Positions 60-63,261 of a stretch of DNA of 64,000 bases are shown in pieces. Source of the stretch: Patescibacteria group bacterium. GTDB taxonomy: Bacteria > Patescibacteriota > Patescibacteriia > UBA1558 > UBA10009. Location: NCBI GenBank assembly GCA_018818425.1, contig JAHISB010000002.1, positions 2,819 to 66,818 of the forward strand, in the 5' to 3' direction. The stretch's first letter is position 1, and every line of letters starts with the position of its first letter. The translations under genes were made by a program, and so were the position numbers. The notes beneath the pieces were generated by a model that was given only the letters and a program-made list of their open reading frames with translations, was not told the DNA's origin and ran no database searches.

Positions 60-599
60 ATGGAATTAAAATCGCAGAGAATAAAGGCATCTTCAATGCT
101 AACCTTATTTACTAAAAGTCCAGATGGGATTACCAATGCTGAAATTAGGGAACGATTTGGTTATCCAGATCCTGAATACCCAAAATTGAAAATAATTCAT
201 CAAACTATTAATAATGGCAAAGACAATGCTATGGGCTTTCATTTCACCATAGATGAAAATAGCGATATGCTTTTAATCGCTAAGGGTGGTGAAACTTTTG
301 GTTATTATAGTCTTGATTTTTTAAAACAGAAAGCAGTTGAGAAAATTGGCAATGGTTTAATCCTTGTTTTAGCTGAAACAAAAAAACAAAAAGGTCACGA
401 ATTTTTTTATTATAAGGAAGCTTATATTCTTAAAGATATTGATCCTAAGAAATTTTTAGCACATTCAAAATATGATATTAGATTAGGAATTTACCATAGT
501 GGCAAGCTTGCTGGCACGCTTCATGACCATGGTTCAGCCTTTCGTATTACTCAAAAATCAATCCCTGATTTTTTTAGAATTAAAAGGAAAATACTTTAA
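60..599 (+). CDS. hypothetical protein; candidate type II restriction endonuclease partner of the adjacent methyltransferase
   Basis: 179 aa ORF with ATG at 60. Convergent with the MTase gene, and the two stop codons overlap (596-599). Possible D...ExK-like segment (IDEN...VLAETKK). AT-rich like the rest of the island. No confident family match by eye. Confidence 0.35.
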   Translation: MELKSQRIKASSMLTLFTKSPDGITNAEIRERFGYPDPEYPKLKIIHQTINNGKDNAMGFHFTIDENSDMLLIAKGGETFGYYSLDFLKQKAVEKIGNGLILVLAETKKQKGHEFFYYKEAYILKDIDPKKFLAHSKYDIRLGIYHSGKLAGTLHDHGSAFRITQKSIPDFFRIKRKIL

Positions 600-2470
600 T
601 TCTTTCTTAAAACTACAATACTCTCTTTATTCATAGTTTCTTCCAATTCACCAGCAATATTTGTCGGTGAGTTTTTTTTAGGCATTCTTTTGCCAGGAAT
701 ATTTCTGATAATTATATCTTCACAGGCCAAACCAATATTTTCTCCTAATTCTGCGATTATAAAATCGGTAGGTATCCTTACTTGTTTTACCATGCGGTTG
801 CCGATTACTAAACAGAAGTATTTATTCTTTTTTAATATTTTATGGGCTTGTTTTAAGCATTTATTTAAGTCAACGTAGAAACTAAGTACCTCCTTAGCTC
901 TTTTATCATCCTTTTTTCTAATTTGATCTATTGTTTGGTTTAAATAATCAGAATTTAGATTGTGCTTTAATTCTTTAACAGCTTTGCCGCCTAAAAGTAT
1001 ATTATCAACTTTTGAAGCCTCACTTTGATCTTTAAAAATATCAATCCATTGCGCTGAAAGCCTGGAAAATTGTCCATAGGCCACAGTTGTTCTACTGTCG
1101 CCATATGGCGGAGAAGTTAAAATAAAGTCAATAGAATTTTCTTTAATGCCATTATCTTTAGATGAGTCGCTAAAAATAATTTTAGTCCAAGTTTTTTTAT
1201 CAACATTTTTCTCAAATTCGCCCATAGCTTTAATATTGTTTTCAGTTTTCTTTTTGAATATTTCCAGAACATTAGGATTGTATTTTTCCAATACTTCTTT
1301 TTTAATTCTTACCAATTTAAACTCGCCATTCTTTGTATTAGAAGCCAGTCGTACTGTTTCACTAAATCCAACTAAAAAGAAATTCTGAATATTTTTATTT
1401 TTAATCTCTTTTATAGCTTTTTTAATTTTTGCTAATTCAATAATAACCTTATCTTTAAACCAGAAATCAATATTTAGAAATTCAGGTTTTTTAATCTGAT
1501 TTTTTTTAATTTTTCTTATCCTATCTAGTAACTTAAAATATTCATTCTGAAGTTTTGATGATGATATTTCAGTAGTTTTTGCTTTTGCTAAAAAAATTGC
1601 CAAAGGATTAAGATCTATGCCATAAGAGTTTCTGCCTAATAATCTGCTTTCTATTAGCGCTGTACCTGACCCACAGAAAATATCGCAAATTGCATCACCC
1701 TTTTTGCTGTAATTTTGTAAAAGCCGGCGTGCCACTTGTGGGATAAACATCGCCGGATATGTATGCAAACCATGCGTATATGATTTAGTTTTTTCACCGC
1801 GAAAATCCCATGAGTAGTCAATTCTGCGAGTGTATTTTTCATTGCTTGTTTTATCCTCTTCAATGTCTTTTTCTATATTTCTAATAATTTTCACCACAAC
1901 GCCCCTTACTTCAACTTCTTTTCTGTAAAAAGGAAACAAGGTAGGATTTGCCGGCTGTAGCCGAAATCTATCTTTTTCACGATATAATTTTTTTAAGGTG
2001 GCTTCATTATCATCAATTATAGCTACAACCATTTCACCATTATCAGCTGTCACTTGTTTTTTTAAAACAACAATATCACCATCAAAAATACCTTCATCAA
2101 TCATGCTGTTACCTTGGACTCTTAAAGCGTAGTGGTTGTGATAATTATGAAAATTATCTTTAGTTATGGTTATGGTTTCGTCTGGCGCTTCCACTGCTTC
2201 TATGGGCTGTCCGGCGGCAATAGTGCCAATTAGGGGAATTTCTATAGTATTATTTTGGTTTGTTTTTAGCTCTAAACCTCGTGATAGATGCTCATTTTTA
2301 ACCAAAAACCCTTTATCTATCAAAGCGTCAATATGCTGATATACCCCAGATAGGGCCTTCAGCTTAAAATACCTCTTTATTTCTTCAAAAGTAGGGGAGA
2401 TACCTTTCTTATTTATGTATTTTTTGATGTAATCGTAGATTTCCTTCTGTTTTTTAGTTAGGGTTGGCAT
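596..2470 (-). CDS. LexA-like repressor (HTH + S24 peptidase) fused to an amino (N6-adenine/N4-cytosine) DNA methyltransferase
   Basis: Continuous 624 aa ORF. N-terminal ~200 aa match LexA: winged HTH (LTKKQKEIYDYIKKYI...GISPTFEEI...HIDALIDKGFL), canonical cleavage site IAAGQPI, Ser in GNSM and Lys in ATLKKL. The C-terminal ~415 aa carry MTase motif X-I (HTYPAMFIPQVARRLL...DIFCGSGTALIE) and motif IV (ILTSPPYGD), i.e. alpha-like order with a TRD between them. ATG at 2470. Confidence 0.75.
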   Translation of the reverse strand: MPTLTKKQKEIYDYIKKYINKKGISPTFEEIKRYFKLKALSGVYQHIDALIDKGFLVKNEHLSRGLELKTNQNNTIEIPLIGTIAAGQPIEAVEAPDETITITKDNFHNYHNHYALRVQGNSMIDEGIFDGDIVVLKKQVTADNGEMVVAIIDDNEATLKKLYREKDRFRLQPANPTLFPFYRKEVEVRGVVVKIIRNIEKDIEEDKTSNEKYTRRIDYSWDFRGEKTKSYTHGLHTYPAMFIPQVARRLLQNYSKKGDAICDIFCGSGTALIESRLLGRNSYGIDLNPLAIFLAKAKTTEISSSKLQNEYFKLLDRIRKIKKNQIKKPEFLNIDFWFKDKVIIELAKIKKAIKEIKNKNIQNFFLVGFSETVRLASNTKNGEFKLVRIKKEVLEKYNPNVLEIFKKKTENNIKAMGEFEKNVDKKTWTKIIFSDSSKDNGIKENSIDFILTSPPYGDSRTTVAYGQFSRLSAQWIDIFKDQSEASKVDNILLGGKAVKELKHNLNSDYLNQTIDQIRKKDDKRAKEVLSFYVDLNKCLKQAHKILKKNKYFCLVIGNRMVKQVRIPTDFIIAELGENIGLACEDIIIRNIPGKRMPKKNSPTNIAGELEETMNKESIVVLRKN

Positions 2471-17447: not shown

Positions 17448-17492
17448 TAAAAAATGCGAAAATCGAAATAACAGAGATATCCACTGAAAACA

Positions 17493-17566
17493 CTGACAGT
17501 TCACGGATAACTCACCGAGGACTCACAGATATCAGTGTAACATCAGCCCGAATCAGTGAACTGTCA
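17493..17566. repeat. 12-bp perfect inverted repeat (ctgacagttcac / gtgaactgtcag) enclosing TCAC(N)GAT words
   Basis: Arms at 17493-17504 and 17555-17566. The interior has tcacggat and tcacagat words. The cagcgtatctcagcg motif follows at 17565-17579. Confidence 0.6.
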
Positions 17567-17596
17567 GCGTATCTCAGCGACCTAGGATTTAATAAA

Positions 17597-18919: not shown

Positions 18920-18946
18920 TTAGCACTCTCAACGGTAGAGTGCCAA
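18920..18946 (+). promoter_or_regulatory. CIRCE element (HrcA operator)
   Basis: TTAGCACTC-N9-GAGTGCCAA, matching TTAGCACTC-N9-GAGTGCTAA with one mismatch. Located between the -10 box and hrcA. Confidence 0.8.
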
Positions 18947-19658: not shown

Positions 19659-19788
19659 TGATCACTAACGACGCGAACTAACACGAACCTATCACGAACC
19701 GCTGACTAATTAAAGTAGGTTCGCGGTTCGCGGAGGTCAGCGAATGTTTGTGTCGTCAGTGATAAAGTGATAATTCGTGAAATTCAAT

Positions 19789-21081: not shown

Positions 21082-21163
21082 TCACAGATAGTTCACGGAT
21101 GAATCACTGATGACTCACGGATATAATTATTAACATTTTATTATTAATTTAAAGATAAATATT

Positions 21164-25164: not shown

Positions 25165-25290
25165 ATTCCAAGGACCAAAATTAAAAGATCCAAACAATTT
25201 TCAAAATAAAAAATAAAAAGTTTATTATTTCGGTTCTTTTGATTTGTTTGGTTCTTCGGTTCTTTTGATTTGGTTCTTTTCTTGTTATAA
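25165..25290. repeat. intergenic word palindrome (aaaagaaccaaa / ttggttcttttgatttg words)
   Basis: Same word family and architecture as 58155-58245. Confidence 0.5.
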
Positions 25291-25349: not shown

Positions 25350-25973
25350 ATGTTGATAACTTCGACAGAAGAATTAATCACTTCAAACAGCAGAGAGCTG
25401 TTTATTTCGGCGCAGGATACCGCCGGCCAGGCCGGGGATTTTTTCAGCCATTTAGACTGGTCCGCGCCCAGCTGGGATTTATTCATTATTCTGTTTTTTT
25501 TAATAGCTTCGTTAATTTACGGCCTGTCGCTGGGCAGGGACAGAATCGTAATTATCCTAGTTTCTATTTATATGGCGCTGGCCGTGGTGGATTACGCGCC
25601 TTTTGCCGAGAAATTGATTGAAGGAACCTCTTTGGAGGGTTTCTTTTTATTTAGGGTAGTTTCGTTTATAGCGGTGTTTCTGCTGTTATTTTTTATTCTG
25701 GCCCAGTCGGCCCTTTTAAACACCTTTGCTTCCCGCAATGCTTCCCGCAGCTGGTGGCAGACCATTGTTTTCAGCATTCTCCACGTAGGGCTGATTATCA
25801 GCATCACCCTGTCGTTTCTGCCGGAATCGTTTGTTAACGAACTTTCGGATTTTACCTACCGGCTGTTTGCCACGGAAACGGCCAGGTTTGTTTGGATAAT
25901 TCTGCCCATCATTGCCATGGCCTTTATCAGAAAACCCCGCCGCAGACGGCGCGACATTGACGAATATCTTTAA
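25350..25973 (+). CDS. hypothetical membrane protein
   Basis: Track start is TTG 25344; ATG at 25350. ~5 TM. C-terminal KPRRRRRDIDEYL. Confidence 0.45.
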   Translation: MLITSTEELITSNSRELFISAQDTAGQAGDFFSHLDWSAPSWDLFIILFFLIASLIYGLSLGRDRIVIILVSIYMALAVVDYAPFAEKLIEGTSLEGFFLFRVVSFIAVFLLLFFILAQSALLNTFASRNASRSWWQTIVFSILHVGLIISITLSFLPESFVNELSDFTYRLFATETARFVWIILPIIAMAFIRKPRRRRRDIDEYL

Positions 25974-25974
25974 T

Positions 25975-26112
25975 CCGAATATATCACTAATAAATCACGA
26001 ATAATCTCACGAATATGTCACGAATTCACGAATAATCGCGAATAAAAAACTATTAGCGAATTCGTGTGATATTAGAGATGCAGATTAGCGATTTATTAGA
26101 GATATATTCGTG
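25975..26112. repeat. intergenic word palindrome (tcacgaata / tattcgtga words)
   Basis: Forward words in 25980-26040, reverse-complement words in 26050-26112. Confidence 0.5.
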
Positions 26113-27717
26113 TTATTTTATTTTGAACACACTGCTGTCATCAGTTTCAATTTTTTTTTCAAAGAATTCCGGACTCGCTTCCAGGAATTTTTTAAAATCC
26201 TGGTAGATGAAGTAATCGTTAATCCAGATGTATTCAGAATTAAATTGAGTTTTGATGGTTTGGGCGATCATAGCCGGTTGCCGCTGTTCGGCCATACAGC
26301 CCGAGGCCGTTAAATCATCCAAATCAATTAAATCGGCCGGCGCGTTGCAGGCGATTGATTTTTCGGTGATGTTGCGCCAAAGCCAGTAGAGGTTTTTGTC
26401 GTATAAATACATAAAGGTCGGGTCCAGGCCGACAATATAGTAGTTATGGTGATTATGAAAAAATAGTCTGGGGAAAGCATCCCAGGCAGTATGAAAAACT
26501 ATTGATTTTTCAGGGGTGTTGTTTTCAAGCCATTCGGCTGTTTGTTGGTAGCGGCTAATGGGGCAGGCATTTTTATACCCTAAATAGGCTTTTTTTACTG
26601 GTAAAAAGATAAGTGAAAAAAAAGTTAAAATCAATAAAGCTTTGAAAACTGGTTTTCTTATATATTTTTTAAAATCATTTATTAAGTTCTGTTGTTCATA
26701 AGATACCAGTGATTTTTTAAGCAAAGTAAAAGTATGAGCTGTTAAAAGAATTGTAAACGGGACAAAGTATTCTATAAAACGGATTGATTCAATAGTCCAG
26801 AGGCCGTAAAATATTGCTAAAATAAAGAGGGTATAGAGCAATATTTTTTCATTCATAGAGGCAATTTTCTTTTTTAAATAAATAGTTAGGATCCCACATA
26901 TAATTATCATGAAAGAAACTAAAAAAGTATCTTGAAAAAAAGTCAAAGAAGCATGAGCCTGTTCTTGTCCAACAGCCACTCCAGCATTTATTAAATTTAG
27001 ATAAAGAAGATCAAATGTTTGCTGAAAATTAAGAATAACAATATTTGGAAAGTCAGGCCTAATAATCAAAGTTAAAATTAGTGCCAGAAGAGGATAAGTA
27101 TAATATTTTAAATACAGTTTTTTAGTAAACAACCATTCAATAACCGTATAGATAATAATAATGATAAATATTTGTAACCAGCCAGCGTAACTAAGACAAT
27201 AAATTGTTGAAGAAAAAAATAAGAGTCCAAATTTTTTATTATGAACTGCATAAAGAATAATTAGAGTAAGAATAATAGAGATTAAAAAAGGCCGGGAAAT
27301 AAATAGTCGGAAAAAGAATATTGAAGAAGAAAATAATAAGAGGGTCAGCCACAATGTGTGATTTTTTATATCTAGTTTTTTTAAAAAAAATATAAAAAAG
27401 TTTATAAAGAAGAGCAATAATATAAGAACTAAAATTTTTACTGCAATAATTGGGTTTAAAAAAAGAAGCAAAGGATAAAGCAATAAATGGTAACCCAACG
27501 ATAAATCCGCAGGGAACAAGCTCCAGCTGGTATATTGAAACCAAGGAAGCTCGTTAATAACGTTTAAACCGTCCGTATTAAATAATTGAGAAATTTTAAG
27601 ATGATAAAAAATATCAGTGCCAATTATTGTTGGGCGAATAAATAAAATAAAAGTAAATAAAATCAGCAATAATAGATTGTAATAGATAATGGGCTTATTT
27701 TTGATAGCCTTGAACAT
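26113..27717 (-). CDS. GT-C-like integral membrane protein (ArnT/PMT-like putative glycosyltransferase), very AT-rich
   Basis: Track start is TTG 27759; ATG at 27717 gives MFKAIKNK... and sits ~7 nt after a minus-strand TATAAT. 10+ TM with C-terminal soluble domain. GC far below neighbours. Confidence 0.4.
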   Translation of the reverse strand: MFKAIKNKPIIYYNLLLLILFTFILFIRPTIIGTDIFYHLKISQLFNTDGLNVINELPWFQYTSWSLFPADLSLGYHLLLYPLLLFLNPIIAVKILVLILLLFFINFFIFFLKKLDIKNHTLWLTLLLFSSSIFFFRLFISRPFLISIILTLIILYAVHNKKFGLLFFSSTIYCLSYAGWLQIFIIIIIYTVIEWLFTKKLYLKYYTYPLLALILTLIIRPDFPNIVILNFQQTFDLLYLNLINAGVAVGQEQAHASLTFFQDTFLVSFMIIICGILTIYLKKKIASMNEKILLYTLFILAIFYGLWTIESIRFIEYFVPFTILLTAHTFTLLKKSLVSYEQQNLINDFKKYIRKPVFKALLILTFFSLIFLPVKKAYLGYKNACPISRYQQTAEWLENNTPEKSIVFHTAWDAFPRLFFHNHHNYYIVGLDPTFMYLYDKNLYWLWRNITEKSIACNAPADLIDLDDLTASGCMAEQRQPAMIAQTIKTQFNSEYIWINDYFIYQDFKKFLEASPEFFEKKIETDDSSVFKIK

Positions 27718-27740
27718 TATTATTATTATAAACTTTTTAG

Positions 27741-27776
27741 TAAAAAAAAGAAGGGGCAAACCTTGCGGTTTACCCC
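27741..27776 (-). terminator. rho-independent terminator for the 27797-31116 operon
   Basis: Minus strand reads GGGGTAAACC-GCAA-GGTTTGCCCC (9/10 bp stem) followed by TTCTTTTTTTTAC. Confidence 0.55.
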
Positions 27777-30432: not shown

Positions 30433-31116
30433 TTAGTTGAACTCAATGCACCCGACACACCGTGTGCCGAGTATTTTGAACTCCATCTTTCCGGCAATGT
30501 TTTTGGTTGCCAGAACTTCCACCCTGGCTTGGGTGTTGCTGACCGATAGGGTATTAACATTAACCCCGTTCTGCCAGCTTTCTACTTGTTTGCCGGGGGT
30601 GGCTTGTCTACAGTTCTTGTAAGTGAAAGTGACTTGGTGCCAACTACAGTCAGCGCTGATGGTTGGGATGTTTGGTGTCATTTTGATTTCCCGGCCGGCA
30701 TCACCAACCATTAACCATACCAGGGTCAACAAAACGGCAGTTATAGCGATTGGAATGAAAGCGTAGCGTTTTTTCTTAAGCCATGGTTTGCATTTCTTGT
30801 TCCACCATACCTTAAAATTCTGCCATTTGTAGAGTAAGCGTGTTTTAATGTTTTGTCTTCTCCACCAGTTAAGCAGGCCGCCATGGCCGCTAGTCAAATC
30901 ACCTGCTCTTTGTCTACGGTTTTGTAGCCAGTCAAATATGTAAGCAACCAATGCGACCAAAACACCGAAGGCTGACAGAATTAGCCAACTTTCATTTGCC
31001 CATCCGAAGTTATATGTCAGAGCAGCGTGGAGCAGTAGTATTAATGCAACTACCATTAATGCAACTACCATTATGCCGACAAACTTCATCCCAAGTTTTG
31101 GCTTTTTGAATTCCAT
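30433..31116 (-). CDS. hypothetical membrane protein (first gene of the three-gene operon)
   Basis: Track start is TTG 31200; in-frame ATG at 31116 gives MEFKKPKLGMKFVGIMVVALMVVALILLL. Two TM regions and a W/K-rich basic loop. Confidence 0.45.
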   Translation of the reverse strand: MEFKKPKLGMKFVGIMVVALMVVALILLLHAALTYNFGWANESWLILSAFGVLVALVAYIFDWLQNRRQRAGDLTSGHGGLLNWWRRQNIKTRLLYKWQNFKVWWNKKCKPWLKKKRYAFIPIAITAVLLTLVWLMVGDAGREIKMTPNIPTISADCSWHQVTFTYKNCRQATPGKQVESWQNGVNVNTLSVSNTQARVEVLATKNIAGKMEFKILGTRCVGCIEFN

Positions 31117-31433
31117 GATTTTCACCCTTACCTTTCTGATATTTTTTTCTTTTATTTTTTTTGACTTTGTTATTAATCCTAGTAAAAAATGGAGAGTCAA
31201 TTTAGAGTTTTTGGTCTTCGGTCATCAATCATCAATTTTCACTAATAGCACAAACTAACAATAGACGAACACAAATATTCACAAACTTAACACAAACTAA
31301 CGTAGTAAATACAGCATTAACTACCCAGTTTTTACCAGGATTGTTTGTCAAAGTCCGTAAATTGACCCCTTACTGTAGCAAATTTTGGCGATTTTGTCAA
31401 CCCAAAAATAAAAAATGGCTGAAGTTAGCCAAA

Positions 31434-31735
31434 TATCACCGATCTATCACAGATGAATCACCGATCTATCACGGATAAATCACTGATAAATCACCGATCT
31501 ATCACGGATAAATCACTGATAAATCACAGATCTATCACGGATAAATCACCGATAAATCACCGATCTATCACCGATAAATCACGGATGAATCACTGATTGA
31601 TAATATAAAGTATCGGTGATTCATCCGTGGATATCCGTGATAGATCCGTGTATCTCCGTGATTTATCGGTGAGCCATCTGTGCGCTATCTGTCGATAGAC
31701 CCCGAGCTTATCGAGGAGTGAACTATCGGTGATTT
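31434..31735. repeat. ~300 bp imperfect palindrome built from ~25 tandem 10-bp units (ATCAC[C/G/T/A]GAT[C/A]TA)
   Basis: ~16 direct units (31434-31598), AT-rich centre (tgataatataaagta), then ~9 reverse-complement units (31610-31700). Extends into the last codons of dusB. Same TCACNGAT words at 17490-17570 and 21082-21125. Confidence 0.8.
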
Positions 31736-32696
31736 ATCCGTGAATTTCAGCCAAGATTTTTTCAATATCCTTAATACTTTCCACTCTTACCAACTCTGTT
31801 CTTAAATCAGAAGCATTTGGCAAACCTTTAACGTACCAGAGCAGGTGTTTGCGCAGTTCAATAAGGCCATGTTCACCTTTTGTTTTAAGAGCTAGTTGAG
31901 CATGCTTTAAGATAATTTGTTTTTTTTCTGGCCAACTGGGTTCTTCAAATTTTCCGGTTTTTAAATAGTCTTTGATTTGCTGAAAAAGCCAAGGTCTGCC
32001 ATAAGTTCCTCTGGCAAGGCCCAGGCCGTCAGCTTTGGTTTTTTTTAATAATTCTTTAGCGTCTTCAGGGGAGTTGACTCCGCCGTTGGCCAGGATTGTG
32101 CCTTTAAAGTATTTTCCGGCCTCTTTAATCATTTGATAGTCAATTTCGCCGCTAAAGCCCTGTTCATAAGAACGGCCGTGGATCATTACAGCGCTAATCG
32201 GCAGGTCAGCCATTTTTTTTAGAAAATCAATAACCGTTACTTTTTTGCCGATTTTTGATTTAATGGAAGTTCTGACTTTAACTGAAACCGGAAGCTTGGT
32301 GTTATCAATCGTCTGTTTTATTAGCTGATAGCATAAATTTAAATCTCTTATCAAAGTTACGCCGCCGCCGTGGCCGACAACTTTGCGGGCCGGACAGCCA
32401 AAGTTAATGTCAATGCCGCCGGCTCCCGACTTTTCGACAATCCGGGCAGCTTCACCGAATTTAGCCGGGTCCTTGCCGAAAAGTTGAACCACTAACGGTT
32501 GTTCAGCTTTTTCAAATTTTAACATCTCCAAAGTTTTTTTGCCTTCAAAAAAAAGCCCGTCCGCCGAAGTCATTTCCGAATAAACAACATCGGCGCCGTA
32601 TAAACGGCACAGCTGCCGAAAAGCCGAGTCGGTAATGCCGGCCATGGGCGCCAAGGCCAGAATCGGTTTATTTATTTGTTGCCAAAAGTTGGGCAT
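31734..32696 (-). CDS. dusB: tRNA-dihydrouridine synthase (DusB-like)
   Basis: 320 aa. LAPMAGITDSAFR, TIM-barrel FMN motifs (GIDINFGCPARKVVGHGGG), C-terminal helical domain. Confidence 0.85.
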   Translation of the reverse strand: MPNFWQQINKPILALAPMAGITDSAFRQLCRLYGADVVYSEMTSADGLFFEGKKTLEMLKFEKAEQPLVVQLFGKDPAKFGEAARIVEKSGAGGIDINFGCPARKVVGHGGGVTLIRDLNLCYQLIKQTIDNTKLPVSVKVRTSIKSKIGKKVTVIDFLKKMADLPISAVMIHGRSYEQGFSGEIDYQMIKEAGKYFKGTILANGGVNSPEDAKELLKKTKADGLGLARGTYGRPWLFQQIKDYLKTGKFEEPSWPEKKQIILKHAQLALKTKGEHGLIELRKHLLWYVKGLPNASDLRTELVRVESIKDIEKILAEIHG

Positions 32697-32699
32697 TGA

Positions 32700-32810
32700 G
32701 TTGGGTGATTAGGTTAATTAGGTGATTAGGTGATTAGGTCTTAGGTCTTTAGTCTTCAATCTTTAGTCCTCAGTCATCAATCCTCAATCCTTAGTCTTCA
32801 GTCTTTAAAA
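32700..32810. repeat. degenerate tandem word repeats (ggtgattag; tcaatcc / tcttcag)
   Basis: The tcaatcc word also recurs at 34620-34680, 38200-38260 and 44810-44870. Confidence 0.5.
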
Positions 32811-32859: not shown

Positions 32860-32876
32860 GGGTTTTGATTAGTTTT

Positions 32877-33257
32877 ATGAAATCAGATCAAAAAGGCCTA
32901 GCTATGCTTATTGTGCCCATAACTATTGCCATTATAGGGCTTTTGGGCACTGGCGCAATGGCAGCTTTGGACCACGAGAAAAATTTAGCCAAAGAGCGGG
33001 AGGCGCAGCGCGCGGCCGATATTGAATTTGTCCAAAACAAGCTGGCTGATTATTTTACTCAAAATTTAAATTATCCCGCGCAAAAAAATGAAAGCATCAG
33101 CGGCTGGGATATTTTGGAAAGTTCTCTCGGCGATTTGCCCGACGACCCTCTAAAAAACAAGGGCTGGAGCTATGTTTACTGGAGCGACGGCCAGAGCTAT
33201 ACTTTAAGATACATGCTGGAAAAAACTTTAGAAGAACAGATAGTTTTTGGGTATTAG
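32877..33257 (+). CDS. hypothetical membrane-anchored protein, weakly pilin/pseudopilin-like
   Basis: Track start is TTG 32865; ATG at 32877 gives MKSDQKG-LAMLIVPITIAIIGLLG. Hydrophobic N-terminus after a Gly but no Glu+5, so not a canonical type IV prepilin. Confidence 0.35.
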   Translation: MKSDQKGLAMLIVPITIAIIGLLGTGAMAALDHEKNLAKEREAQRAADIEFVQNKLADYFTQNLNYPAQKNESISGWDILESSLGDLPDDPLKNKGWSYVYWSDGQSYTLRYMLEKTLEEQIVFGY

Positions 33258-33329: not shown

Positions 33330-33460
33330 GTTGATTTACAAATTATCACTGATTATCACTGACCACACGAACAGCCACTGACTTGCCACAAACCACTGAC
33401 GAAAAATGTCAGTGGTCAGTGAATGTTCGCGCCGGTTCGCGTCGTTCGCGATTCAGAGGA
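33330..33460. repeat. intergenic word palindrome (atcactga / tcagtg words)
   Basis: attatcactgattatcactgacc...gtcagtggtcagtgaat. Confidence 0.5.
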
Positions 33461-35244: not shown

Positions 35245-35528
35245 TAGTCTAAAAGTTTTCTTTGAATTTTTTGTGTAGAGTATGAACAATGGGATAATCG
35301 TTGTATTAACAATACCGGTTAGAGAAATTCCAAATCCAAAATCACAAATAACAAATAAATTCCAAATTCCAAAAATAAAATATCACTGATCATCACTAAG
35401 ATATGCTGACCATTTGCTGATACACGCTCGCCTTGAGCGAAGTCGAGAGGCGAAGCAGGCTGATAATCCGCGGATATCAGCGTACCTCGGCGCATCTCGG
35501 CGGTTATTGGTGAATAATTCTCAATCCT

Positions 35529-35591
35529 CCCAGCCAGCCTTCGGCCGTGAGCTCAGGCCGAACGGAGGCTGGTCGGCCTCTGGCCGAAATC
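35529..35591. repeat. full-length GC-rich tandem-hairpin element (copy B)
   Basis: cccagccagccttcggccgtgagctcaggccgaacggaggctggtcggcctctggccgaaatc. 35529-35574 is the exact reverse complement of 54130-54175. Confidence 0.85.
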
Positions 35592-39708: not shown

Positions 39709-39836
39709 TATACCCAATTGCTTTAATAAAATAGAAAATACTCCAAAGCGATGCGTTAATATTAATACTAATATTAGATAAAATAATTCAAATTATTCAA
39801 TTAGCAAAATCGGAATTATTAAAGCGAAGGAGTATA
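39709..39836. repeat. ~130 bp AT-rich dispersed element, copy 1 (directly upstream of dnaX)
   Basis: Near-identical to 62841-63006. Ends AAAGCGAAGGAGTATA (SD-like AAGGAG) 9 nt before the dnaX ATG. Internal inverted 7-mers atactcc / ggagtat. Confidence 0.85.
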
Positions 39837-42939: not shown

Positions 42940-43070
42940 GGTAGCCAAAGGGCTATTTTTTTAGTATAATGTTAGATATGGGAACATGTGAACATGGGAA
43001 CATTAGAACACTTGCTCCCATGCTCCCATGTTCTAATGCTTTAATGCTTTAATGCTTTAATGCTTTAATT
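42940..43070. repeat. intergenic word palindrome (gaacatggga / tcccatgttc) plus tandem aatgcttta x4
   Basis: Word family shared with 63030-63135. Confidence 0.55.
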
Positions 43071-44689: not shown

Positions 44690-44878
44690 AACAACCAACC
44701 CCTCGATAAACTCGGGGCCTATCGGCAAGAAACAAACAAATTCCAATCCCCGATTATCCCCGATTCAATCGGGGAGGGGACAAATTACAAATAACAAATA
44801 AATCCCAAAATACAAATCCTCAATCCTCAATCCTTAAGCTTCAATCCTCAATCCTTTAAGCTTTGAGTTTTAAGATTT
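44690..44878. repeat. intergenic region of G/C-clamped mini-hairpins and tcaatcc word repeats
   Basis: cccctcgataaactcgggg and ccccgattcaatcgggg hairpins, then caaataa and tcaatcctcaatcc words. Confidence 0.5.
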
Positions 44879-46701: not shown

Positions 46702-46883
46702 TTTACAAGCCGAATGAGGAAGGGTTGATGGTAGGTTAATTAAATATTAAATACTATATATGGGTTTAATTATTCTGATAATAATCTTACTAATTGTAAT
46801 CGGAGTTATCGCTTATATAGCCGTAAAAAATGATTAATGCCGCTGGTAAAAAAATTAATTAATTTAATAATACATTTTAATTT

Positions 46884-47618
46884 ATGATAAATGAGTTAGA
46901 AATTACTGATCAGTATGATTTAATAAAAAAGTATCACGAAAAGTATTTGAAAAAATTTGGTGTAAAAATACCAAAATTGTTGGACAATAGCGGTCAATTT
47001 ACAAAAAATGCCCTAATGTTAGTTTATCTATCATTAGGTTATCCAAAAACCAAAGTAGTTTCTAAAACAGAATTAACCAAATTTATTAGAATATACTTTT
47101 CAGATACAAATGATGTTCAGCAGGCCAGACACCTTGGTGCTCAAGATGGTTGGTGGATTGTAGCCGGTGGCCGTGATAATATTGTTGCAGATCTTAAATC
47201 AGGCGAATATCAGCTTTATACTTTAGAACAACCCTACCCATCTTTTAAGAAAGGGCATAGAATTATTGATACAGGCGATTGGAATAAATTAAAGGAACAA
47301 TATAGCTTTCGCTGCGCAACTTGCGGTTCTCGGGAAGGGGAGCCGCAATTTAACTGGCCCGGTACAAAAACAAAATTACAGAAATCTCATAAAGATCCCA
47401 ACAAACCTTTGATAGCTGGTAATATAATCCCTCAATGTCAAAAATGTAATCGTGCTGATAGAAATAGATGGGTTTATGATGAAAAAGGCAGGGTTATTAA
47501 ATTAGCTAACCCTAAATTTGTTAAAAATTTTGATAAAGATGTTCGCTGGGAAATATATAAAATTCTTTTTAATGAATTTAAAGGGGAAAATCTTAATGAA
47601 AAAAAGTCAAAAAAATAA
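46884..47618 (+). CDS. HNH/zinc-ribbon nuclease, candidate restriction endonuclease
   Basis: 244 aa. C-terminal RCATCGSREGE...HKD...CQKCNRADRN. Immediately followed by and overlapping a DNA methyltransferase gene. Confidence 0.5.
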   Translation: MINELEITDQYDLIKKYHEKYLKKFGVKIPKLLDNSGQFTKNALMLVYLSLGYPKTKVVSKTELTKFIRIYFSDTNDVQQARHLGAQDGWWIVAGGRDNIVADLKSGEYQLYTLEQPYPSFKKGHRIIDTGDWNKLKEQYSFRCATCGSREGEPQFNWPGTKTKLQKSHKDPNKPLIAGNIIPQCQKCNRADRNRWVYDEKGRVIKLANPKFVKNFDKDVRWEIYKILFNEFKGENLNEKKSKK

Positions 47619-48546
47619 CCAATTATTAAATAAAATCATTTTAGGCGATGCTTTGGATATCATAAAAAAAATTGATGATGATTCAATTGATGTTGCGCTG
47701 ACTGATCCGCCTTATTTTTTAGATAAGTTAGACAATAATTGGCAATTCAATAAAGTAAGCGATCAACGAAATAGACAGGTTATTAAATCTTTGCCAGCCG
47801 GGATGAAATTTGATAGAAATCAAGGTATAAATTTTTATAATTGGTATTTAAAAGTTGCTAAAGAAATTTATAGAGTGTTAAAACCTGGCGGCTTCTTTTT
47901 TTCTTTTTCTAGCCCCAGATTATATCATAGAATGGCCAGCGCCATAGATGACGCGGGCTTATTAATCAAGGATTGCTTTTTGTGGGTTTATACGCAAAAT
48001 CAGGCAAAGGCAATGGGGCTGGATCATTTTATTGATAAAATGGAAATCAGTCAAAAAGAAAAAGATAAACTCAAAGATAAATTAAAGGACTGGAAAACTC
48101 CTCAAATTAAATCGGTTTTTGAACCTATAGTGATGGCGCAAAAGCCCACTGACGGCACTTTTTTAGAAAATATGATCAAAAATAAAGTAGGCCTTTTTAA
48201 TACGCGGGTAAAAGTCGGCGCTAATATGTTCCCGTCAAACCTGTTTATAATTGATGGCATAAATGAAATAATGGATAAGTATTTTTTAATTGGCAAACCA
48301 TCTAAAAATGAAAAGTTGTATTTTAATAAACATATGACTGTCAAGCCATTAACTTTATGCGAGCATCTGCTAAAACTTTCGGTCTTTGATAATAATGGTG
48401 TTGTTTTAGATCCTTTCACTGGTAGCGGCACCACATTGTTAGCGGCAAAAAATTTAAAATTAAATTATATAGGAATTGATATTAACAAAGAATATATTGA
48501 TATTGCCAATGAGAGGTTGAATATGCAATCAAATAAACTTTTATGA
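47596..48546 (+). CDS. beta-class amino DNA methyltransferase (DPPY; N6-adenine or N4-cytosine)
   Basis: Track start 47518 overlaps the upstream gene; ATG 47596 gives MKKSQKNNQLLNKIILGDALDIIKKIDDDSIDVALTDPPYF (motif IV). C-terminal HPTQKP-like region plus VLDPFTGSGTTLLAAKNLKLNYIGIDINKEYIDIA (motif I). Confidence 0.8.
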   Translation: MKKSQKNNQLLNKIILGDALDIIKKIDDDSIDVALTDPPYFLDKLDNNWQFNKVSDQRNRQVIKSLPAGMKFDRNQGINFYNWYLKVAKEIYRVLKPGGFFFSFSSPRLYHRMASAIDDAGLLIKDCFLWVYTQNQAKAMGLDHFIDKMEISQKEKDKLKDKLKDWKTPQIKSVFEPIVMAQKPTDGTFLENMIKNKVGLFNTRVKVGANMFPSNLFIIDGINEIMDKYFLIGKPSKNEKLYFNKHMTVKPLTLCEHLLKLSVFDNNGVVLDPFTGSGTTLLAAKNLKLNYIGIDINKEYIDIANERLNMQSNKLL

Positions 48547-49064
48547 ACCTAAAATCCAAAATCCGCGAAATACCGGATTGGCCCATCAAGGGCGTGAATT
48601 TTAAAGATATTTCCACGATTATAGAAGATAAAGAAGCGTTTAGGTATGTCATTGATAAGTTATTGGAACCATATCAAGGGCAAAAAATTGATAAAGTGGT
48701 GGGCATTGATGCCCGAGGGTTTTTATTTTGTTCGGCCATGGCTTACCGCTTGGGCGCCGGCTGCGTGATGATTCGGAAAAAAGGCAAACTGCCCTGGAAA
48801 ACCATCGGCCAGGATTATGCTTTGGAATACGGCGCCAATACCATTGAAATGCATCAGGACAGCATCAAGCCGGGAGAGAGAGTGATAATCGTTGATGATT
48901 TATTAGCCACGGGCGGTACCATGGCCGCGACCGTTGATTTAGTCAAACAATTGGGCGGCGAGATTGCGGGCATCAGCTTTATCATCGATCTGGTATTTTT
49001 AAAAGGCAAAGAGAAAATCAAAGATTATCCAGTTCATACCTTGGTTGAATATGAGAGTGAGTAG
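48543..49064 (+). CDS. apt: adenine phosphoribosyltransferase
   Basis: 173 aa. PRPP-binding VIIVDDLLATGGT. Confidence 0.85.
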   Translation: MNLKSKIREIPDWPIKGVNFKDISTIIEDKEAFRYVIDKLLEPYQGQKIDKVVGIDARGFLFCSAMAYRLGAGCVMIRKKGKLPWKTIGQDYALEYGANTIEMHQDSIKPGERVIIVDDLLATGGTMAATVDLVKQLGGEIAGISFIIDLVFLKGKEKIKDYPVHTLVEYESE

Positions 49065-49066
49065 TT

Positions 49067-49206
49067 ACACTGTCATTGCGAGGAGCCGTGAACCAGAGCG
49101 CAAGCGATTGGTTCAGGGCGACGAAGCAATCCCCTTACTGAACGGACGTCCATTGGCAAGGGGATTGCTTCGTCCCTCCTAACGTCGGGACTCGCAATGA
49201 CAGTGG
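49067..49206. repeat. GC-rich compound hairpin element of the TGTCATTGCGAG family
   Basis: Outer stem cactgtcattgcgagg / cctcgcaatgacagtg. 17-bp perfect inner stem gacgaagcaatcccctt (49120-49136) / aaggggattgcttcgtc (49158-49174). Extra hairpin gaacc...ggttc. Confidence 0.8.
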
Positions 49207-49223
49207 TATAATATTATTATTCT

Positions 49224-50039
49224 ATGACACAACAAGATATTCAAACAGCCGAAATCGGCATTATCGGCGGTTCTGGCTTTTATGAATTTATTGAAAATGG
49301 CGAGGAGTTTGAGATTGACACCGACTGGGGCAAACCCAGCGCTAAAATCACTGTCGGCGAAGTGGAGGGCAAAAAAGTGGCTTTTTTGCCGCGCCATGGC
49401 AAAAAGCATATTTTTCCGCCTCACCGGGTTCCATACCTTGCCAATATCGCCGCTTTAAAGAAAATCGGCGTTAAATACATTATTGCTCCTTCGAGCTGCG
49501 GTTCTCTTCAGGCAAACATCAAACCGGGCGATTTTATAATTTGCGATCAGTTTGTGGACAGGACTAAAAACAGGCCCGATACTTATTACAACGGTCCGGA
49601 GGTTGTTCATATTGTTGGGGCAGAACCATATTGCCCCACCCTTCGTCAAATTGCCATTGCCTCTTGTGAAAAACTCAACATTGCTCACCATCCTGCTGGC
49701 ACGGCCGTAGTTGTCAACGGCCCCAGATTTTCTACCAAAGCAGAAAGCTTATGGTTTACTAAAATGGGCTGGCAGGTGGTAAACATGACCCAGTATCCAG
49801 AAGTAGTTCTGGCTAGGGAGCAAGATATTCATTATGTTAATATTTCTTTAAGTACTGATTATGATGTCGGTATAGTGGCTGAACAAGAAATGCCGCCGGT
49901 GAATATTGAAGAAGTATTAAAAACCTTCAAGAACAATATCGAAAAAGTCAAAAATTTAATCAAAGAAATAATAAAACAACTGCCGCCGGAAGAATTAAAG
50001 TGTGAGTGCCATCGGACTTTGGAGAAATCAAAGTTGTAA
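49224..50039 (+). CDS. mtnP: S-methyl-5'-thioadenosine phosphorylase
   Basis: 271 aa. IGIIGGSGFYEF, PNP/MTAP family 2 motifs. Extended -10 TGGTATAAT at 49203-49211, 12 nt before the ATG. Confidence 0.8.
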   Translation: MTQQDIQTAEIGIIGGSGFYEFIENGEEFEIDTDWGKPSAKITVGEVEGKKVAFLPRHGKKHIFPPHRVPYLANIAALKKIGVKYIIAPSSCGSLQANIKPGDFIICDQFVDRTKNRPDTYYNGPEVVHIVGAEPYCPTLRQIAIASCEKLNIAHHPAGTAVVVNGPRFSTKAESLWFTKMGWQVVNMTQYPEVVLAREQDIHYVNISLSTDYDVGIVAEQEMPPVNIEEVLKTFKNNIEKVKNLIKEIIKQLPPEELKCECHRTLEKSKL

Positions 50040-50040
50040 T

Positions 50041-50160
50041 CTTGTATCGCTGTTCGTGTATCGTATATCGTGTATCGTAATCGTGTATCGTGTATCTCTA
50101 TCATCATTATTAAATAATTCAATAATTAACGATACACGATACACGAACAGCGATATACGA
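50041..50160. repeat. intergenic word palindrome (cgtgtatcg / cgatacacg words)
   Basis: Forward words 50041-50100, reverse-complement words 50120-50160. Confidence 0.6.
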
Positions 50161-53504: not shown

Positions 53505-53634
53505 TATGTCATTGCGAGGAGTGTGATCCCTCACTCCGTTCAGGACAGGCTCCACAATCCCATTGAGTTACGAACTTTCGTTCAACAAGGAGATTGCTTC
53601 GCTCGTGCCTCGCTCGCAATGACAGCAAGGCCAA
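53490..53634. repeat. TGTCATTGCGAG-family compound hairpin overlapping the recJ stop
   Basis: aaggccttgcctaatatgtcattgcgagg pairs with cctcgctcgcaatgacagcaaggcc. Interior related to the 49067 and 58605 copies. Confidence 0.7.
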
Positions 53635-54077: not shown

Positions 54078-54176
54078 ACCGAAGACTTCGGCCATGAGCC
54101 ATAGGCCATCATCCTTTGGCTGAAAGGCCGACCAGCCTCCGTTCGGCCTGAGCTCACGGCCGAAGGCTGGCTGGGA
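54078..54176. repeat. GC-rich tandem-hairpin element, copy D (inverted relative to copy B)
   Basis: 54130-54175 is the exact reverse complement of 35529-35574. The flanks share the ggctggtcggcct core. Confidence 0.85.
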
Positions 54177-56251: not shown

Positions 56252-56390
56252 TGAATAAGTTTGATAAGTCATATAAGTTTAATGAGTTTAATAAGTTGAG
56301 TAAGTTCGATAAACTACGGAAGTAAACTTATTCAACTTATTCAACATATTCAACTTATTCAACGTATTCAACTTATTCAACATTTTAAAT
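56252..56390. repeat. intergenic palindrome of ~14 nine-bp units (gaataagtt ... aacttattc)
   Basis: Seven forward units, centre acggaagta, seven reverse-complement units. Confidence 0.75.
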
Positions 56391-58154: not shown

Positions 58155-58245
58155 ATAATCAAATTAAAAGAACCAAGAACCAAACAAGAACCAAAATTAA
58201 AAAATAAAAAACTTTTTTATTTCGGTCCTTTTGATTTGTTTGCCT
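58155..58245. repeat. intergenic word palindrome (aagaaccaa / ggtccttttgatttg), sibling of 25165-25290
   Basis: Shared words and order. Confidence 0.5.
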
Positions 58246-62840: not shown

Positions 62841-63006
62841 TATACCCAATTACTTTAATAAAATAGAAAATACTCCGACCTGTCCCGCGAAGTTTTAACG
62901 TAGCGGGAAGCGATGCGTTAATATTGATACTAATATTAGATAAAATAATTCAATAATTCAAATTATTCAATTAGCAAAATCGGAATTATTAAAGCGAAGG
63001 AGTATA
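62841..63006. repeat. ~130 bp AT-rich dispersed element, copy 2 (between mreC and mreD)
   Basis: Matches 39709-39836, with a 34-nt hairpin insertion (cccgcgaagttttaacgtagcggg) and an 8-nt duplication. Followed by the gaacatgggagca word palindrome (63030-63135). Confidence 0.85.
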
Positions 63007-63189
63007 TAACTCCGAAGCGGCGGAGCTTAGTATGAGAACATGGGAGCATGAGAACATGGGAGCACTAGAACATGGGAGCATTAGAACATTGGAGCACTTG
63101 CTCTTATGCTCCCATGTTCCAATGTTCTCATGCTAAACTTCGGGGCATTATACGGAATTATTTAAGCAATTGAGTATAAATTAAAATGA

Positions 63190-63261
63190 ATCCCGCACCA
63201 CAGGAAACCACTGGCGTAAGTCCATAATCAAGTTGTGCTGGGTAAGCCTGTGGTGCGGGAT
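63190..63261. other. 15-bp perfect inverted repeat (ATCCCGCACCACAGG / CCTGTGGTGCGGGAT) overlapping the mreD start codon
   Basis: Arms at 63190-63204 and 63247-63261, 42-nt loop. The ATG of mreD (63260) lies in the 3' arm. Confidence 0.7.

What the first reader, a model, noticed from the sequence alone, without database searches (positions are those of the whole stretch)
31434..31735. 300-bp palindromic array of ~25 ten-bp iteron-like units (TCACNGAT core) with the same core scattered at other loci
There are sixteen direct 10-bp units (ATCACCGATC / TATCACGGATA / AATCACTGATA ...). Then comes an AT-rich centre, followed by about nine reverse-complement units (CCGTGATAGA, CCGTGATTTA ...). The 10-bp period matches the DNA helical repeat, so every unit lies on the same face. 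This is the geometry of plasmid partition sites (parC-type iterons) and of arrays bound cooperatively by a DNA-binding protein. The array sits between the dusB stop and the upstream region of the 31116-27797 operon, and it encodes the last DusB residues. The same octamer core TCAC(N)GAT recurs in short clusters at 17490-17570 and 21082-21125. This suggests a genome-wide binding motif rather than a single structural hairpin.
Basis: partly seen in the sequence, partly recalled or inferred. Interest (0 to 1): 0.55.

Follow-up and report, generated by a model that had tools for sequence, protein, structure and literature searches.

The report
Palindromic 11-bp repeat array after dusB
A 310-bp hairpin-forming stretch built from 11-bp repeats lies between the dusB gene and its terminator in an uncultured Patescibacteria (CPR) genome. 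It is an unusually expanded, length-unstable copy of a repeat family that fills the spaces between genes in this lineage, and no function has been shown for it.

Summary
The array is real, but its period is 11 bp, not 10. There are 15 direct ATCAC-N-GAT-NN units (31435-31599), an AT-rich centre, and 9-11 inverted units (31611-31746). The outermost inverted unit supplies the last dusB codons and the stop codon. On the minus strand the order is dusB, array, a separate intrinsic terminator, a sigma-70-like promoter, then the next operon. So the array most likely forms the dusB 3' UTR.

It is not a one-off. Two smaller clusters of the same unit lie in the window, and at least 11 head-to-head arrays of the same family occur in other low-GC metagenome contigs. 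A 94%-identical relative carries a short version (4+5 units) at the same site. An otherwise identical assembly has 12 direct units instead of 15.

All 18 short-period tandem arrays in the window are intergenic, and related Patescibacteria show the same habit.

Best reading: a REP/BOX-like extragenic palindromic repeat element, expanded by slippage, that acts if at all as an RNA stem-loop. A protein-bound iteron array is not excluded, because the core is invariant and position N is free. However, no partner gene, plasmid context or fixed promoter geometry supports a partition site. Replication origin and TIGR guide array are rejected.

The parts
31435..31599 (+). Left arm: 15 direct 11-bp units ATCAC-N-GAT-NN, arranged as five copies of a 33-bp triple unit
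   Evidence: The eight core positions are invariant in all 15 units. All 12 differences among the 33-mers fall on N or linker positions.
31600..31610 (.). AT-rich centre (hairpin loop). The motif TATTATCAATC, read on the minus strand, is shared with L150 and L087
31611..31746 (+). Right arm: inverted units ATC-N-GTGAT. Nine have an intact core, spaced 11/10 bp; the outer ones are decayed. The last two overlap the dusB 3' end.
31693..31716 (-). GC-rich mini-hairpin module (CCTCGATAAGCTCGGGGTCTATCG) inserted in the right arm. It is absent from the orthologous array of L150.
44701..44724 (+). Second copy of the mini-hairpin module (22 of 24 identical), also just downstream of a gene on its own strand
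31734..32696 (-). dusB (tRNA-dihydrouridine synthase, PF01207). Its last codons and stop codon are supplied by the outermost repeat unit.
31406..31431 (-). Intrinsic-terminator-like hairpin TGGCTAACTTCAGCCA followed by TTTTTTATTT, starting 3 nt after the array. It is conserved in L150.
31372..31400 (-). Sigma-70-like promoter TTGACA-17-TACAGT (TG before the -10) for the downstream operon (start codon 31116)
   Evidence: gene call
17485..17575 (+). Small, degenerate head-to-head family member between two MacB-like permease genes
21082..21125 (+). Four direct units of the same family in exact 11-bp register. They start right after a stop codon, 40 nt upstream of dnaK.
25972..26110 (+). Related head-to-head 11-bp array with unit TCACGAAT. 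This is the unit type found after dusB in relatives L152 and L153.

Best explanation
The array is an expanded, copy-number-unstable member of a lineage-specific family of extragenic palindromic repeat elements. The family has 11-bp ATCAC-N-GAT-NN units arranged head-to-head and is usually 100-160 bp long.

Shown:
- It fills the space between the dusB stop codon and a separate intrinsic terminator.
- The strand that a dusB transcript would carry folds into a very stable but register-ambiguous stem-loop.
- Homologous short forms sit at the same site in relatives.
- The unusual length here comes from recent changes: amplification of a 33-bp triple unit, an inserted GC mini-hairpin, and an inner block shared with an element from another genome.

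Inferred:
- The array is transcribed as the dusB 3' UTR (no transcript data were available).
- Like REP/BIME and BOX elements, it acts at the RNA level, if it acts at all. It would be a long imperfect hairpin that protects the upstream message and reinforces the weak 5-bp terminator. That would insulate the downstream promoter.
- The extra units are slippage products with no added function.
For: Position: stop codon, then array, then a terminator 3 nt later, then a promoter.

Fold: MFE -150 kcal/mol against -90.7 +/- 5.4 in shuffles, z = -11.1, with the terminator hairpin folding separately. The MFE structure has frequency 0.0007, so many registers compete.

Orthology: L150 is 94.3% identical in nucleotides over dusB and has the same stop-array-terminator-promoter layout, but only 4+5 units. 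L152 and L153 (DusB 75% and 73% identical) have a head-to-head 11-bp array starting in the last dusB codons, with a variant unit CAC(G/A)AAT, followed by a terminator.

Instability: L001 is identical over 7 kb except for a 33-bp (3-unit) gap inside the array.

Family: 11 clean F...F-loop-R...R elements in metagenome contigs of GC 0.36-0.43, and none in the opposite order.

Genome-wide habit: 18 of 18 tandem arrays of period 6-12 are intergenic, although intergenic DNA is only 13% of the window. Arrays with unrelated units share the same palindromic architecture, and many begin at stop codons. Patescibacteria relatives have 1-6 such arrays per 10 kb. About 70 kb of Veillonella, Neisseria and Burkholderiales loci have none. 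Arrays with different units also sit upstream of dusB in every relative that had upstream sequence. This points to architecture, not sequence, as the conserved property.
Against: There is no positive evidence for RNA-level selection. Only 2 of 30 stem pairs show compensatory change, and the rest are invariant. The N positions of opposite arms pair in 7 of 36 cells at fixed register and 45 of 104 in MFE folds, against 545 of 624 for core positions. Sense-strand folds are not more stable than antisense folds. A canonical terminator is already present. Close relatives L151, L154 and L158 lack any array at this site, so it is dispensable. Strict invariance of ATCAC and GAT with a free N is what a protein-binding site would look like. 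No transcript data were available.
Confidence: 0.5

Rival explanations
1. DNA-level iteron array. An unidentified sequence-specific protein (for example a ribbon-helix-helix dimer) binds each ATCAC-N-GAT unit. It coats one face of the helix at 11-bp spacing in both orientations and organises or insulates chromatin or transcription at many chromosomal loci.
For: The eight core positions are invariant in the 15 left-arm units, while N and the linkers are free. TCAC and GAT are invariant columns across loci and genomes. All 12 differences among the five 33-mers fall on the 9 free positions. The N positions are not kept complementary between the arms. The strict 11-bp register equals the R1 parC iteron length, with one ParR dimer per iteron. 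The WATCAC core equals the omega heptad, which is bound in direct and inverted arrays. The motif is enriched at other loci.
Against: No ParA/ParM/ParB/RHH gene was found in 64 kb. No gene is shared by all loci that carry the family. Position relative to promoters is not fixed. The spacing between arms varies from 4 to 26 nt. Unit number is unconstrained between near-identical genomes. Orthologous arrays use a different core, CACRAAT, and both core types coexist in this genome. Dozens of arrays with unrelated units would each need their own protein. Differences restricted to already polymorphic positions can also arise by unequal exchange between units.
Confidence: 0.25
2. Non-autonomous mobile or self-propagating palindromic element (MITE/REPIN-like). 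It spreads between intergenic sites and genomes, tolerated rather than used by the host.
For: The inner 133 nt of the array are 92% identical to an element in L087. L087 is at a non-syntenic locus, and its only matching proteins are 27-31% identical to window proteins. A module of about 50 nt with the same linker order recurs in L027, L075, L105 and L114. The element occurs in either orientation relative to transcription and in any kind of intergenic context. A GC mini-hairpin is present in the window array but absent from the L150 ortholog. It is bounded by GATAG on both sides, and a second copy lies 13 kb away.
Against: No transposase or RAYT gene is in the window. No clear target-site duplications flank the arrays. 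The three copies in the window are not close copies of one another. Persistence at the same dusB site in several lineages looks like vertical inheritance.
Confidence: 0.15
3. A functionless by-product. Replication slippage and template switching inflated an ordinary terminator-region hairpin in a lineage prone to tandem duplication.
For: A 33-bp indel separates otherwise identical assemblies. There is a threefold size difference at 94% identity. The arms are asymmetric, 15 versus about 11 units. Relatives lack the array. All intergenic spacers of the genome carry such arrays.
Against: Mutation alone does not explain an invariant core with a saturated N across genomes. It also does not explain 92% identity to an element elsewhere, or the exclusive F-then-R arrangement.
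Confidence: 0.1

Closest known systems
REP/BIME elements and REPINs of Enterobacteria and Pseudomonas (PMC3116915, PMC3337134; listed)
   Same: Extragenic and hairpin-forming. Present in several copies per genome. Found in 3' UTRs and between cistrons. About 100 nt when two inverted halves are paired. Their best-known host-level role is protecting upstream mRNA and helping termination (that role is from my own knowledge, not tested here).
   Different: Each arm here is a tandem array of 11-bp units, not a single 20-40-nt imperfect palindrome. There is no GTAG-type head, no RAYT gene was seen, and copy number per genome appears low.
BOX elements of Streptococcus pneumoniae (modular boxA-boxB(n)-boxC; from my own knowledge)
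   Same: A modular intergenic element whose internal module varies in number between copies, and which folds into a long stem-loop.
   Different: The BOX modules are 45-59 nt and not palindromically mirrored. There is no sequence similarity.
Centromere and operator iteron arrays bound by ribbon-helix-helix proteins: R1 parC/ParR (PMC2241845) and pSM19035 parS/omega (PMC9499535)
   Same: Arrays of short units in direct and inverted orientation. R1 iterons are 11 bp, with one dimer per iteron. The omega heptad WATCACW shares the WATCAC core.
   Different: Those arrays lie on plasmids, overlap the promoter of their own par operon and have a fixed unit number. The omega heptads are contiguous at 7 bp. 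Here the context is chromosomal and multi-locus, inside UTRs, with no partner gene and free variation in unit number.
STRR heptamer tandem repeats of heterocystous cyanobacteria (term found in papers listed; details from my own knowledge)
   Same: Lineage-specific short tandem repeats confined to non-coding DNA, with several unrelated unit sequences per genome and no function assigned.
   Different: STRR are 7-mers in a different phylum, and I am not aware of them being described as systematically mirrored into hairpins.
TIGR arrays of TIGR-Tas systems, which are common in Patescibacteria (PMC12045711; bioRxiv 10.64898/2026.09.09.750476)
   Same: Non-CRISPR tandem arrays in the same phylum. 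Some variants have palindromic stems.
   Different: TIGR units are at least 36 nt, with two variable spacers of 8-10 nt flanked by box C/D motifs, next to a Nop-domain tas gene. Here only 3 of 11 positions vary and no such gene is present.

Membership tests
Plasmid partition centromere (parC/ParR or parS/omega type) | Array of short iterated units in direct and/or inverted orientation | tested here: met
   15 direct and 9-11 inverted 11-bp units
Plasmid partition centromere (parC/ParR or parS/omega type) | Array overlaps or flanks the promoter of an adjacent parA/parM plus centromere-binding-protein operon | tested here: not met
   The neighbours are dusB and an operon of unknown membrane proteins. 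A terminator lies between the array and the promoter. No Par or RHH domain was found in any of the 64 ORFs.
Plasmid partition centromere (parC/ParR or parS/omega type) | Located on a plasmid or phage replicon | tested here: not met
   Housekeeping chromosome segment (hrcA-grpE-dnaK-dnaJ, dnaX, holB, recJ, frr, mreBC) with uniformly positive GC skew
Plasmid partition centromere (parC/ParR or parS/omega type) | Specific cooperative binding by the cognate protein | not testable with these tools
   Needs EMSA, DAP-seq or a pull-down
REP/BIME/REPIN | Extragenic, imperfectly palindromic, hairpin-forming | tested here: met
   z = -11.1; intergenic apart from a 13-nt overlap with the dusB end
REP/BIME/REPIN | Many dispersed copies within one genome | tested here: inconclusive
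   Three family loci in 64 kb, plus one related array. The whole genome was not available.
REP/BIME/REPIN | Associated RAYT (IS200-like Y1) transposase and a conserved REP head sequence | tested here: not met
   No Y1 transposase in the window. The units lack a GTAG-type head. The rest of the genome was not examined.
Intrinsic (Rho-independent) terminator | GC-rich stem-loop immediately followed by a U-tract | tested here: not met
   The array itself is not followed by a T-run. The adjacent small hairpin at 31431-31416 with TTTTTTATTT meets the definition.
Variable-number tandem repeat (minisatellite-like) | Head-to-tail units whose number differs between close relatives | tested here: met
   15 versus 12 direct units at 100% flank identity, and 15 versus 4 at 94% identity. 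Caveat: the 12-unit version comes from a k=141 assembly, which could have collapsed the repeat.
TIGR array (TIGR-Tas) | Units of at least 36 nt with two variable spacers of 8-10 nt flanked by box C/D motifs, next to a Nop-domain tas gene | tested here: not met
   The unit is 11 nt with 3 variable positions. No Nop-domain protein is in the window.
Replication origin or terminus (DnaA-box cluster) | GC-skew inflection, dnaA/dnaN neighbourhood, DnaA boxes | tested here: not met
   Cumulative GC skew rises through nearly all of the window, dipping only over the minus-strand gene block at 28-32 kb and never reversing. No dnaA or dnaN gene is present. The units match TTATCCACA only in the GGATAA part (sequence inspection).

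The most novel reading that the evidence does not exclude
ATCAC-N-GAT arrays may be the cis sites of an undescribed chromosomal system in Patescibacteria. One version is a small sequence-specific protein that polymerises on 11-bp-phased units at many gene boundaries (an iteron-type insulator or nucleoid organiser). The other is a new class of modular palindromic mobile elements that expand and exchange blocks. More broadly, mirrored tandem arrays may be a selected, lineage-wide way of building UTRs in CPR genomes.
Probability: 0.2. Interest if true: 0.75.

Novelty: new variant of a known kind. Interest (0 to 1): 0.5.

Why it matters
Patescibacteria have tiny genomes, yet about 12% of the intergenic DNA in this window is short tandem arrays, many of them mirrored. 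At least one family keeps an invariant 8-of-11-bp core across genomes. My literature searches found no description of this. If the arrays act as RNA hairpins or protein-binding sites, they would be a general gene-boundary device of an uncultured phylum whose transcription signals are largely unknown. If they are slippage products, they report an unusual mutational regime.

There is also a practical point. These arrays break short-read assemblies and can be collapsed by them, so they are probably under-represented in metagenome-assembled genomes.

Tried and rejected
- **Origin or terminus of replication:** rejected. GC skew shows no inflection.
- **Known RNA family:** Rfam at gathering thresholds finds only one tRNA in the window.
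- **TIGR-Tas guide array:** rejected on unit length, spacer content and the absence of a Nop-domain gene.
- **Partition site:** no Par or RHH protein in 64 ORFs, even at E <= 1 for the small unknown proteins.
- **Phage or plasmid origin of the motif:** the viral-contig scan gave only four direct-repeat iteron sets that are not this family.
- **Suspected deliberate masking:** the N-runs right after dusB in L004 and L009 looked suspicious. The one in L004 is an ordinary 100-N scaffold gap at a palindrome.
- **CsrA-type GGA sites and DnaA or IHF boxes:** similarity is limited to 5-6 bases and depends on N, which is free (sequence inspection).
- **Sense versus antisense fold stability as a test for RNA selection:** no bias was found, so the test was uninformative or mildly negative.
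- **A coding role for ORF 31453-31596** (47 aa of 11-residue repeats): judged an artefact of the 33-bp super-unit.
- **Literature:** searches for a description of such arrays in CPR found nothing relevant.
- **A gene shared by all loci carrying the family:** none found. Only L048 and L087 are syntenic with each other.

Full report
**What is in the sequence**

Window 31435-31599 holds 15 head-to-tail units of exactly 11 bp, ATCAC-N-GAT-NN.
- TRF reports period 11 with 14.8 copies, and a 33-bp super-period with 5.0 copies at 90% identity.
- Autocorrelation in this arm is 0.79 at lag 11, 0.89 at lag 33 and only 0.14 at lag 10.
- An AT-rich centre follows at 31600-31610.
- The same unit then appears in reverse complement at 31611-31746. 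Nine units have an intact core, spaced alternately 11 and 10 bp. The outer two or three are decayed.
- A GC-rich insertion sits at 31693-31716.
- TCACNGAT occurs 31 times in the window, against 3.5 +/- 1.8 in dinucleotide shuffles.
- Eleven of those sites lie outside the array. Seven of the eleven form two clusters, at 17501-17559 and at 21082-21122, the latter with four units in exact register.

**Context**

The organism is an uncultured Patescibacteria (CPR) bacterium.
- The closest DusB proteins in a species-level genome collection are 59-69% identical and come from Patescibacteria MAGs.
- The window is an ordinary chromosome segment carrying hrcA-grpE-dnaK-dnaJ, dnaX, holB, recJ, frr, mreBC and ackA.
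- GC skew is positive over nearly all of the window and shows no inflection at the array.

On the minus strand the order is as follows.
- dusB occupies 32696-31734. Its last codons ATT CAC GGA TAA are the outermost repeat unit.
- The array runs from 31746 down to 31434.
- Three nucleotides later comes a terminator-like hairpin (31431-31416) with TTTTTTATTT.
- A TTGACA-17-TACAGT promoter follows at 31400-31372.
- The next operon starts at 31116.

The array is therefore most simply the 3' UTR of dusB. This is an inference, because no transcript data were available. That strand, folded as RNA, gives -150 kcal/mol against -90.7 +/- 5.4 for shuffles (z = -11.1). The terminator hairpin folds separately. 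The MFE structure has frequency 0.0007, so many alternative registers compete.

**The array is one case of a genome-wide and lineage-wide habit**

- All 18 tandem arrays in the window with period 6-12 and at least 3 copies are intergenic. Intergenic DNA is only 8,259 of 64,000 bp.
- Many of these arrays are mirrored into hairpins and start at or next to a stop codon.
- Their unit sequences are unrelated: 7-mers at 50036-50160, 8-mers at 42978-43069 and 63032-63127, 9-mers at 56255-56381, and 11-mers TCACGAAT at 25972-26110.
- Loci from other Patescibacteria carry 1-6 such arrays per 10 kb. About 70 kb of Veillonella, Neisseria and Burkholderiales loci, fetched with the same query, carry none.

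**The unit defines a family that recurs elsewhere**

- Most hits are unrelated 11-bp tandem repeats from genomes of all GC contents.
- Eleven elements, in contigs of GC 0.36-0.43, have the same architecture: forward units, a loop, then reverse units. The opposite order was never seen. These are L027, L048 (two elements), L057, L063, L075, L077, L087, L105, L114 and probably L090.
- They are 100-160 bp long with 4-6 units per arm. The window's array is therefore an expanded member.
- They align with one another, and a module of about 50 nt with the same order of linkers recurs in several.
- The inner 133 nt of the window array are 92% identical to the L087 element. L087 is at a non-syntenic locus, and its only matching proteins are 27-31% identical to window proteins.
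- Contexts differ between members:
  - 2 bp after a stop codon (L027);
  - 13-20 nt before a start codon (L075, L063);
  - just upstream of a -35 box (L114);
  - between cistrons (window 17485-17575).
- The loop between the arms ranges from 4 to 26 nt.

**Orthologous loci show both persistence and rapid turnover**

- L001 is identical to the window over 7 kb except for a 33-bp gap inside the array, giving 12 direct units instead of 15. It comes from a k=141 assembly, so repeat collapse cannot be excluded.
- L150 is 94.3% identical in nucleotides over dusB. It has the same stop codon, terminator and promoter, but an array of about 110 bp with 4+5 units around the same loop motif.
- Relative to L150, the window array differs in three ways:
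  - it carries the GC mini-hairpin, bounded by GATAG on both sides, with a second copy at 44701-44724;
  - it carries the inner block shared with L087;
  - it carries the 33-bp amplification.
- L152 and L153 (DusB 75% and 73% identical) also have a head-to-head 11-bp array starting in the last dusB codons. All their units read CAC(G/A)AAT in both arms. That is a concerted change of a core position, and it matches the unit type of the window's 25972 array.
- L151, L154, L158 and more distant relatives have no array at this site.
- Upstream of dusB, every relative that had upstream sequence also carries an array, each with different units.

**What the conservation pattern says**

- In the left arm the eight core positions are invariant in all 15 units. 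All 12 differences among the five 33-mers fall on the nine N or linker positions.
- Across the family, only 2 of 30 stem pairs show compensatory change, and the rest never vary.
- The N positions of opposite arms pair in 7 of 36 cells at fixed register, where chance would give about 37%. In MFE folds they pair in 45 of 104 cases, against 545 of 624 for core positions.
- The stem is therefore a series of 10-bp helices, frequently interrupted at N.
- Sequence is conserved, not pairing.
- Sense-strand RNA folds are not more stable than antisense folds.
- These points count against a purely structural RNA element and in favour of sequence-specific recognition.
- There are two counterweights:
  - Unequal exchange among units would also confine differences to positions that are already polymorphic.
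  - Identical cores allow pairing in any register.

**Weighing the explanations**

| Reading | What it explains | What it fails to explain | Weight |
|---|---|---|---|
| REP/BOX-like extragenic palindromic element that forms the dusB 3' UTR, expanded by slippage | Location; shared architecture of arrays with unrelated sequences; persistence of position while the unit drifts; size instability; dispensability in some relatives | Invariant core with a free N | 0.5 |
| Protein-bound iteron array | Invariant core; free N; 11-bp phase. This equals the R1 parC iteron length and shares the WATCAC core of omega heptads | No partner gene, plasmid context, fixed promoter geometry or stable unit number | 0.25 |
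| Selfish mobile element | 92% match to L087; the inserted mini-hairpin | No transposase; no target-site duplications | 0.15 |
| Pure slippage by-product | Size instability | Cross-genome conservation | 0.1 |

Replication origin, a known RNA family and TIGR guide arrays were tested and rejected.

**Novelty**

Four literature searches found no description of mirrored tandem arrays in CPR intergenic regions. The nearest known kinds are REP/BIME/REPIN, BOX and cyanobacterial STRR repeats. I therefore rate this a new variant of a known kind. Interest is moderate: the array is statistically solid and belongs to an apparently undescribed lineage-wide pattern, but no function is demonstrated.

Noticed in passing
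window 19660-19780, 25972-26110, 33340-33450, 42978-43069, 50036-50160, 56255-56381, 63032-63127; also 25200-25272 and 58168-58240: Other intergenic arrays of 7-11-bp tandem units mirrored into hairpins, each with its own unit sequence. Some form two-locus families: ATGRGARC 8-mers at 42978 and 63032, and a pair at 25200 and 58168. All 18 TRF arrays of period 6-12 are intergenic.
   Followed up: partly
window 32704-32808: The probable dusB 5' UTR, downstream of a predicted TTGTCA-17-TATATT promoter, consists entirely of 8-mer and 7-mer direct repeats. Read on the sense (minus) strand it is purine-rich with repeated AGGA/GAGG motifs and little predicted structure (MFE -9.2).
   Followed up: partly
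window 31236-31305: Five or six decayed units of the form CACAAAnTAA at spacing of about 11 bp lie in the leader of the downstream operon. They may be the remains of an older array.
   Followed up: no
window 31693-31716 and 44701-44724: A 24-nt GC mini-hairpin module (CCTCGATAANCTCGGGGNCTATCG) occurs twice, each time downstream of a gene on its own strand. The copy inside the array is absent from the 94%-identical relative L150. No further copies were found in the other fetched loci or in viral contigs.
   Followed up: yes
window 18920-18943: A CIRCE operator (TTAGCACTC-N9-GAGTGC) lies upstream of hrcA, at the head of an hrcA-grpE-(23S IVP-like)-orf-dnaK-methyltransferase-dnaJ cluster.
   Followed up: no
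window 596-2470 (minus strand): A single ORF combines a LexA DNA-binding domain, an S24 peptidase domain and an N6/N4 DNA methyltransferase domain. It sits next to an MvaI/BcnI-type restriction endonuclease gene (60-599).
   Followed up: no
window 39746-39836 and 62908-63006: A 99-nt non-coding repeat (91% identical) lies upstream of dnaX and upstream of the ORF at 63233. In the second case it is followed by an 8-mer palindromic array.
   Followed up: no
window 35528-35579 and 54125-54176: A 52-nt GC-rich segment is present twice in inverted orientation at 100% identity, 18.5 kb apart. One copy is inside a small ORF upstream of a TraG/TrwB-like ATPase gene, and the other is intergenic.
   Followed up: no
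window 49072-49201, 53508-53623, 58632, 59019: Long GC-rich hairpins begin with GTCATTGCGAG or GTCATTTCGAG. The 179-nt spacer 49050-49228 folds at -91 kcal/mol. This is another dispersed intergenic repeat family.
   Followed up: no
L002 (end of contig), L157 (end of contig), L155 versus L156 at 2466-2565: Short-read assemblies break at these palindromes. One contig ends inside the array. Another ends at a 34-nt perfect palindrome after dusB, and the NCBI MAG has a 100-N scaffold gap exactly there. Such arrays are probably under-represented or collapsed in MAGs.
   Followed up: yes
L048 and L087 compared with window 26113-27759 and 32865-33257: The two metagenome contigs that carry family members are syntenic with each other. 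Like the window's array neighbourhood, they encode a membrane protein of about 548 aa and pilin-like proteins. A link between the family and this gene neighbourhood is possible but was not tested.
   Followed up: partly
window 46702-47517: An 816-bp stretch with no long ORF lies directly upstream of a DNA methyltransferase gene (47518-48546). It may be a degraded or mis-framed restriction gene.
   Followed up: no
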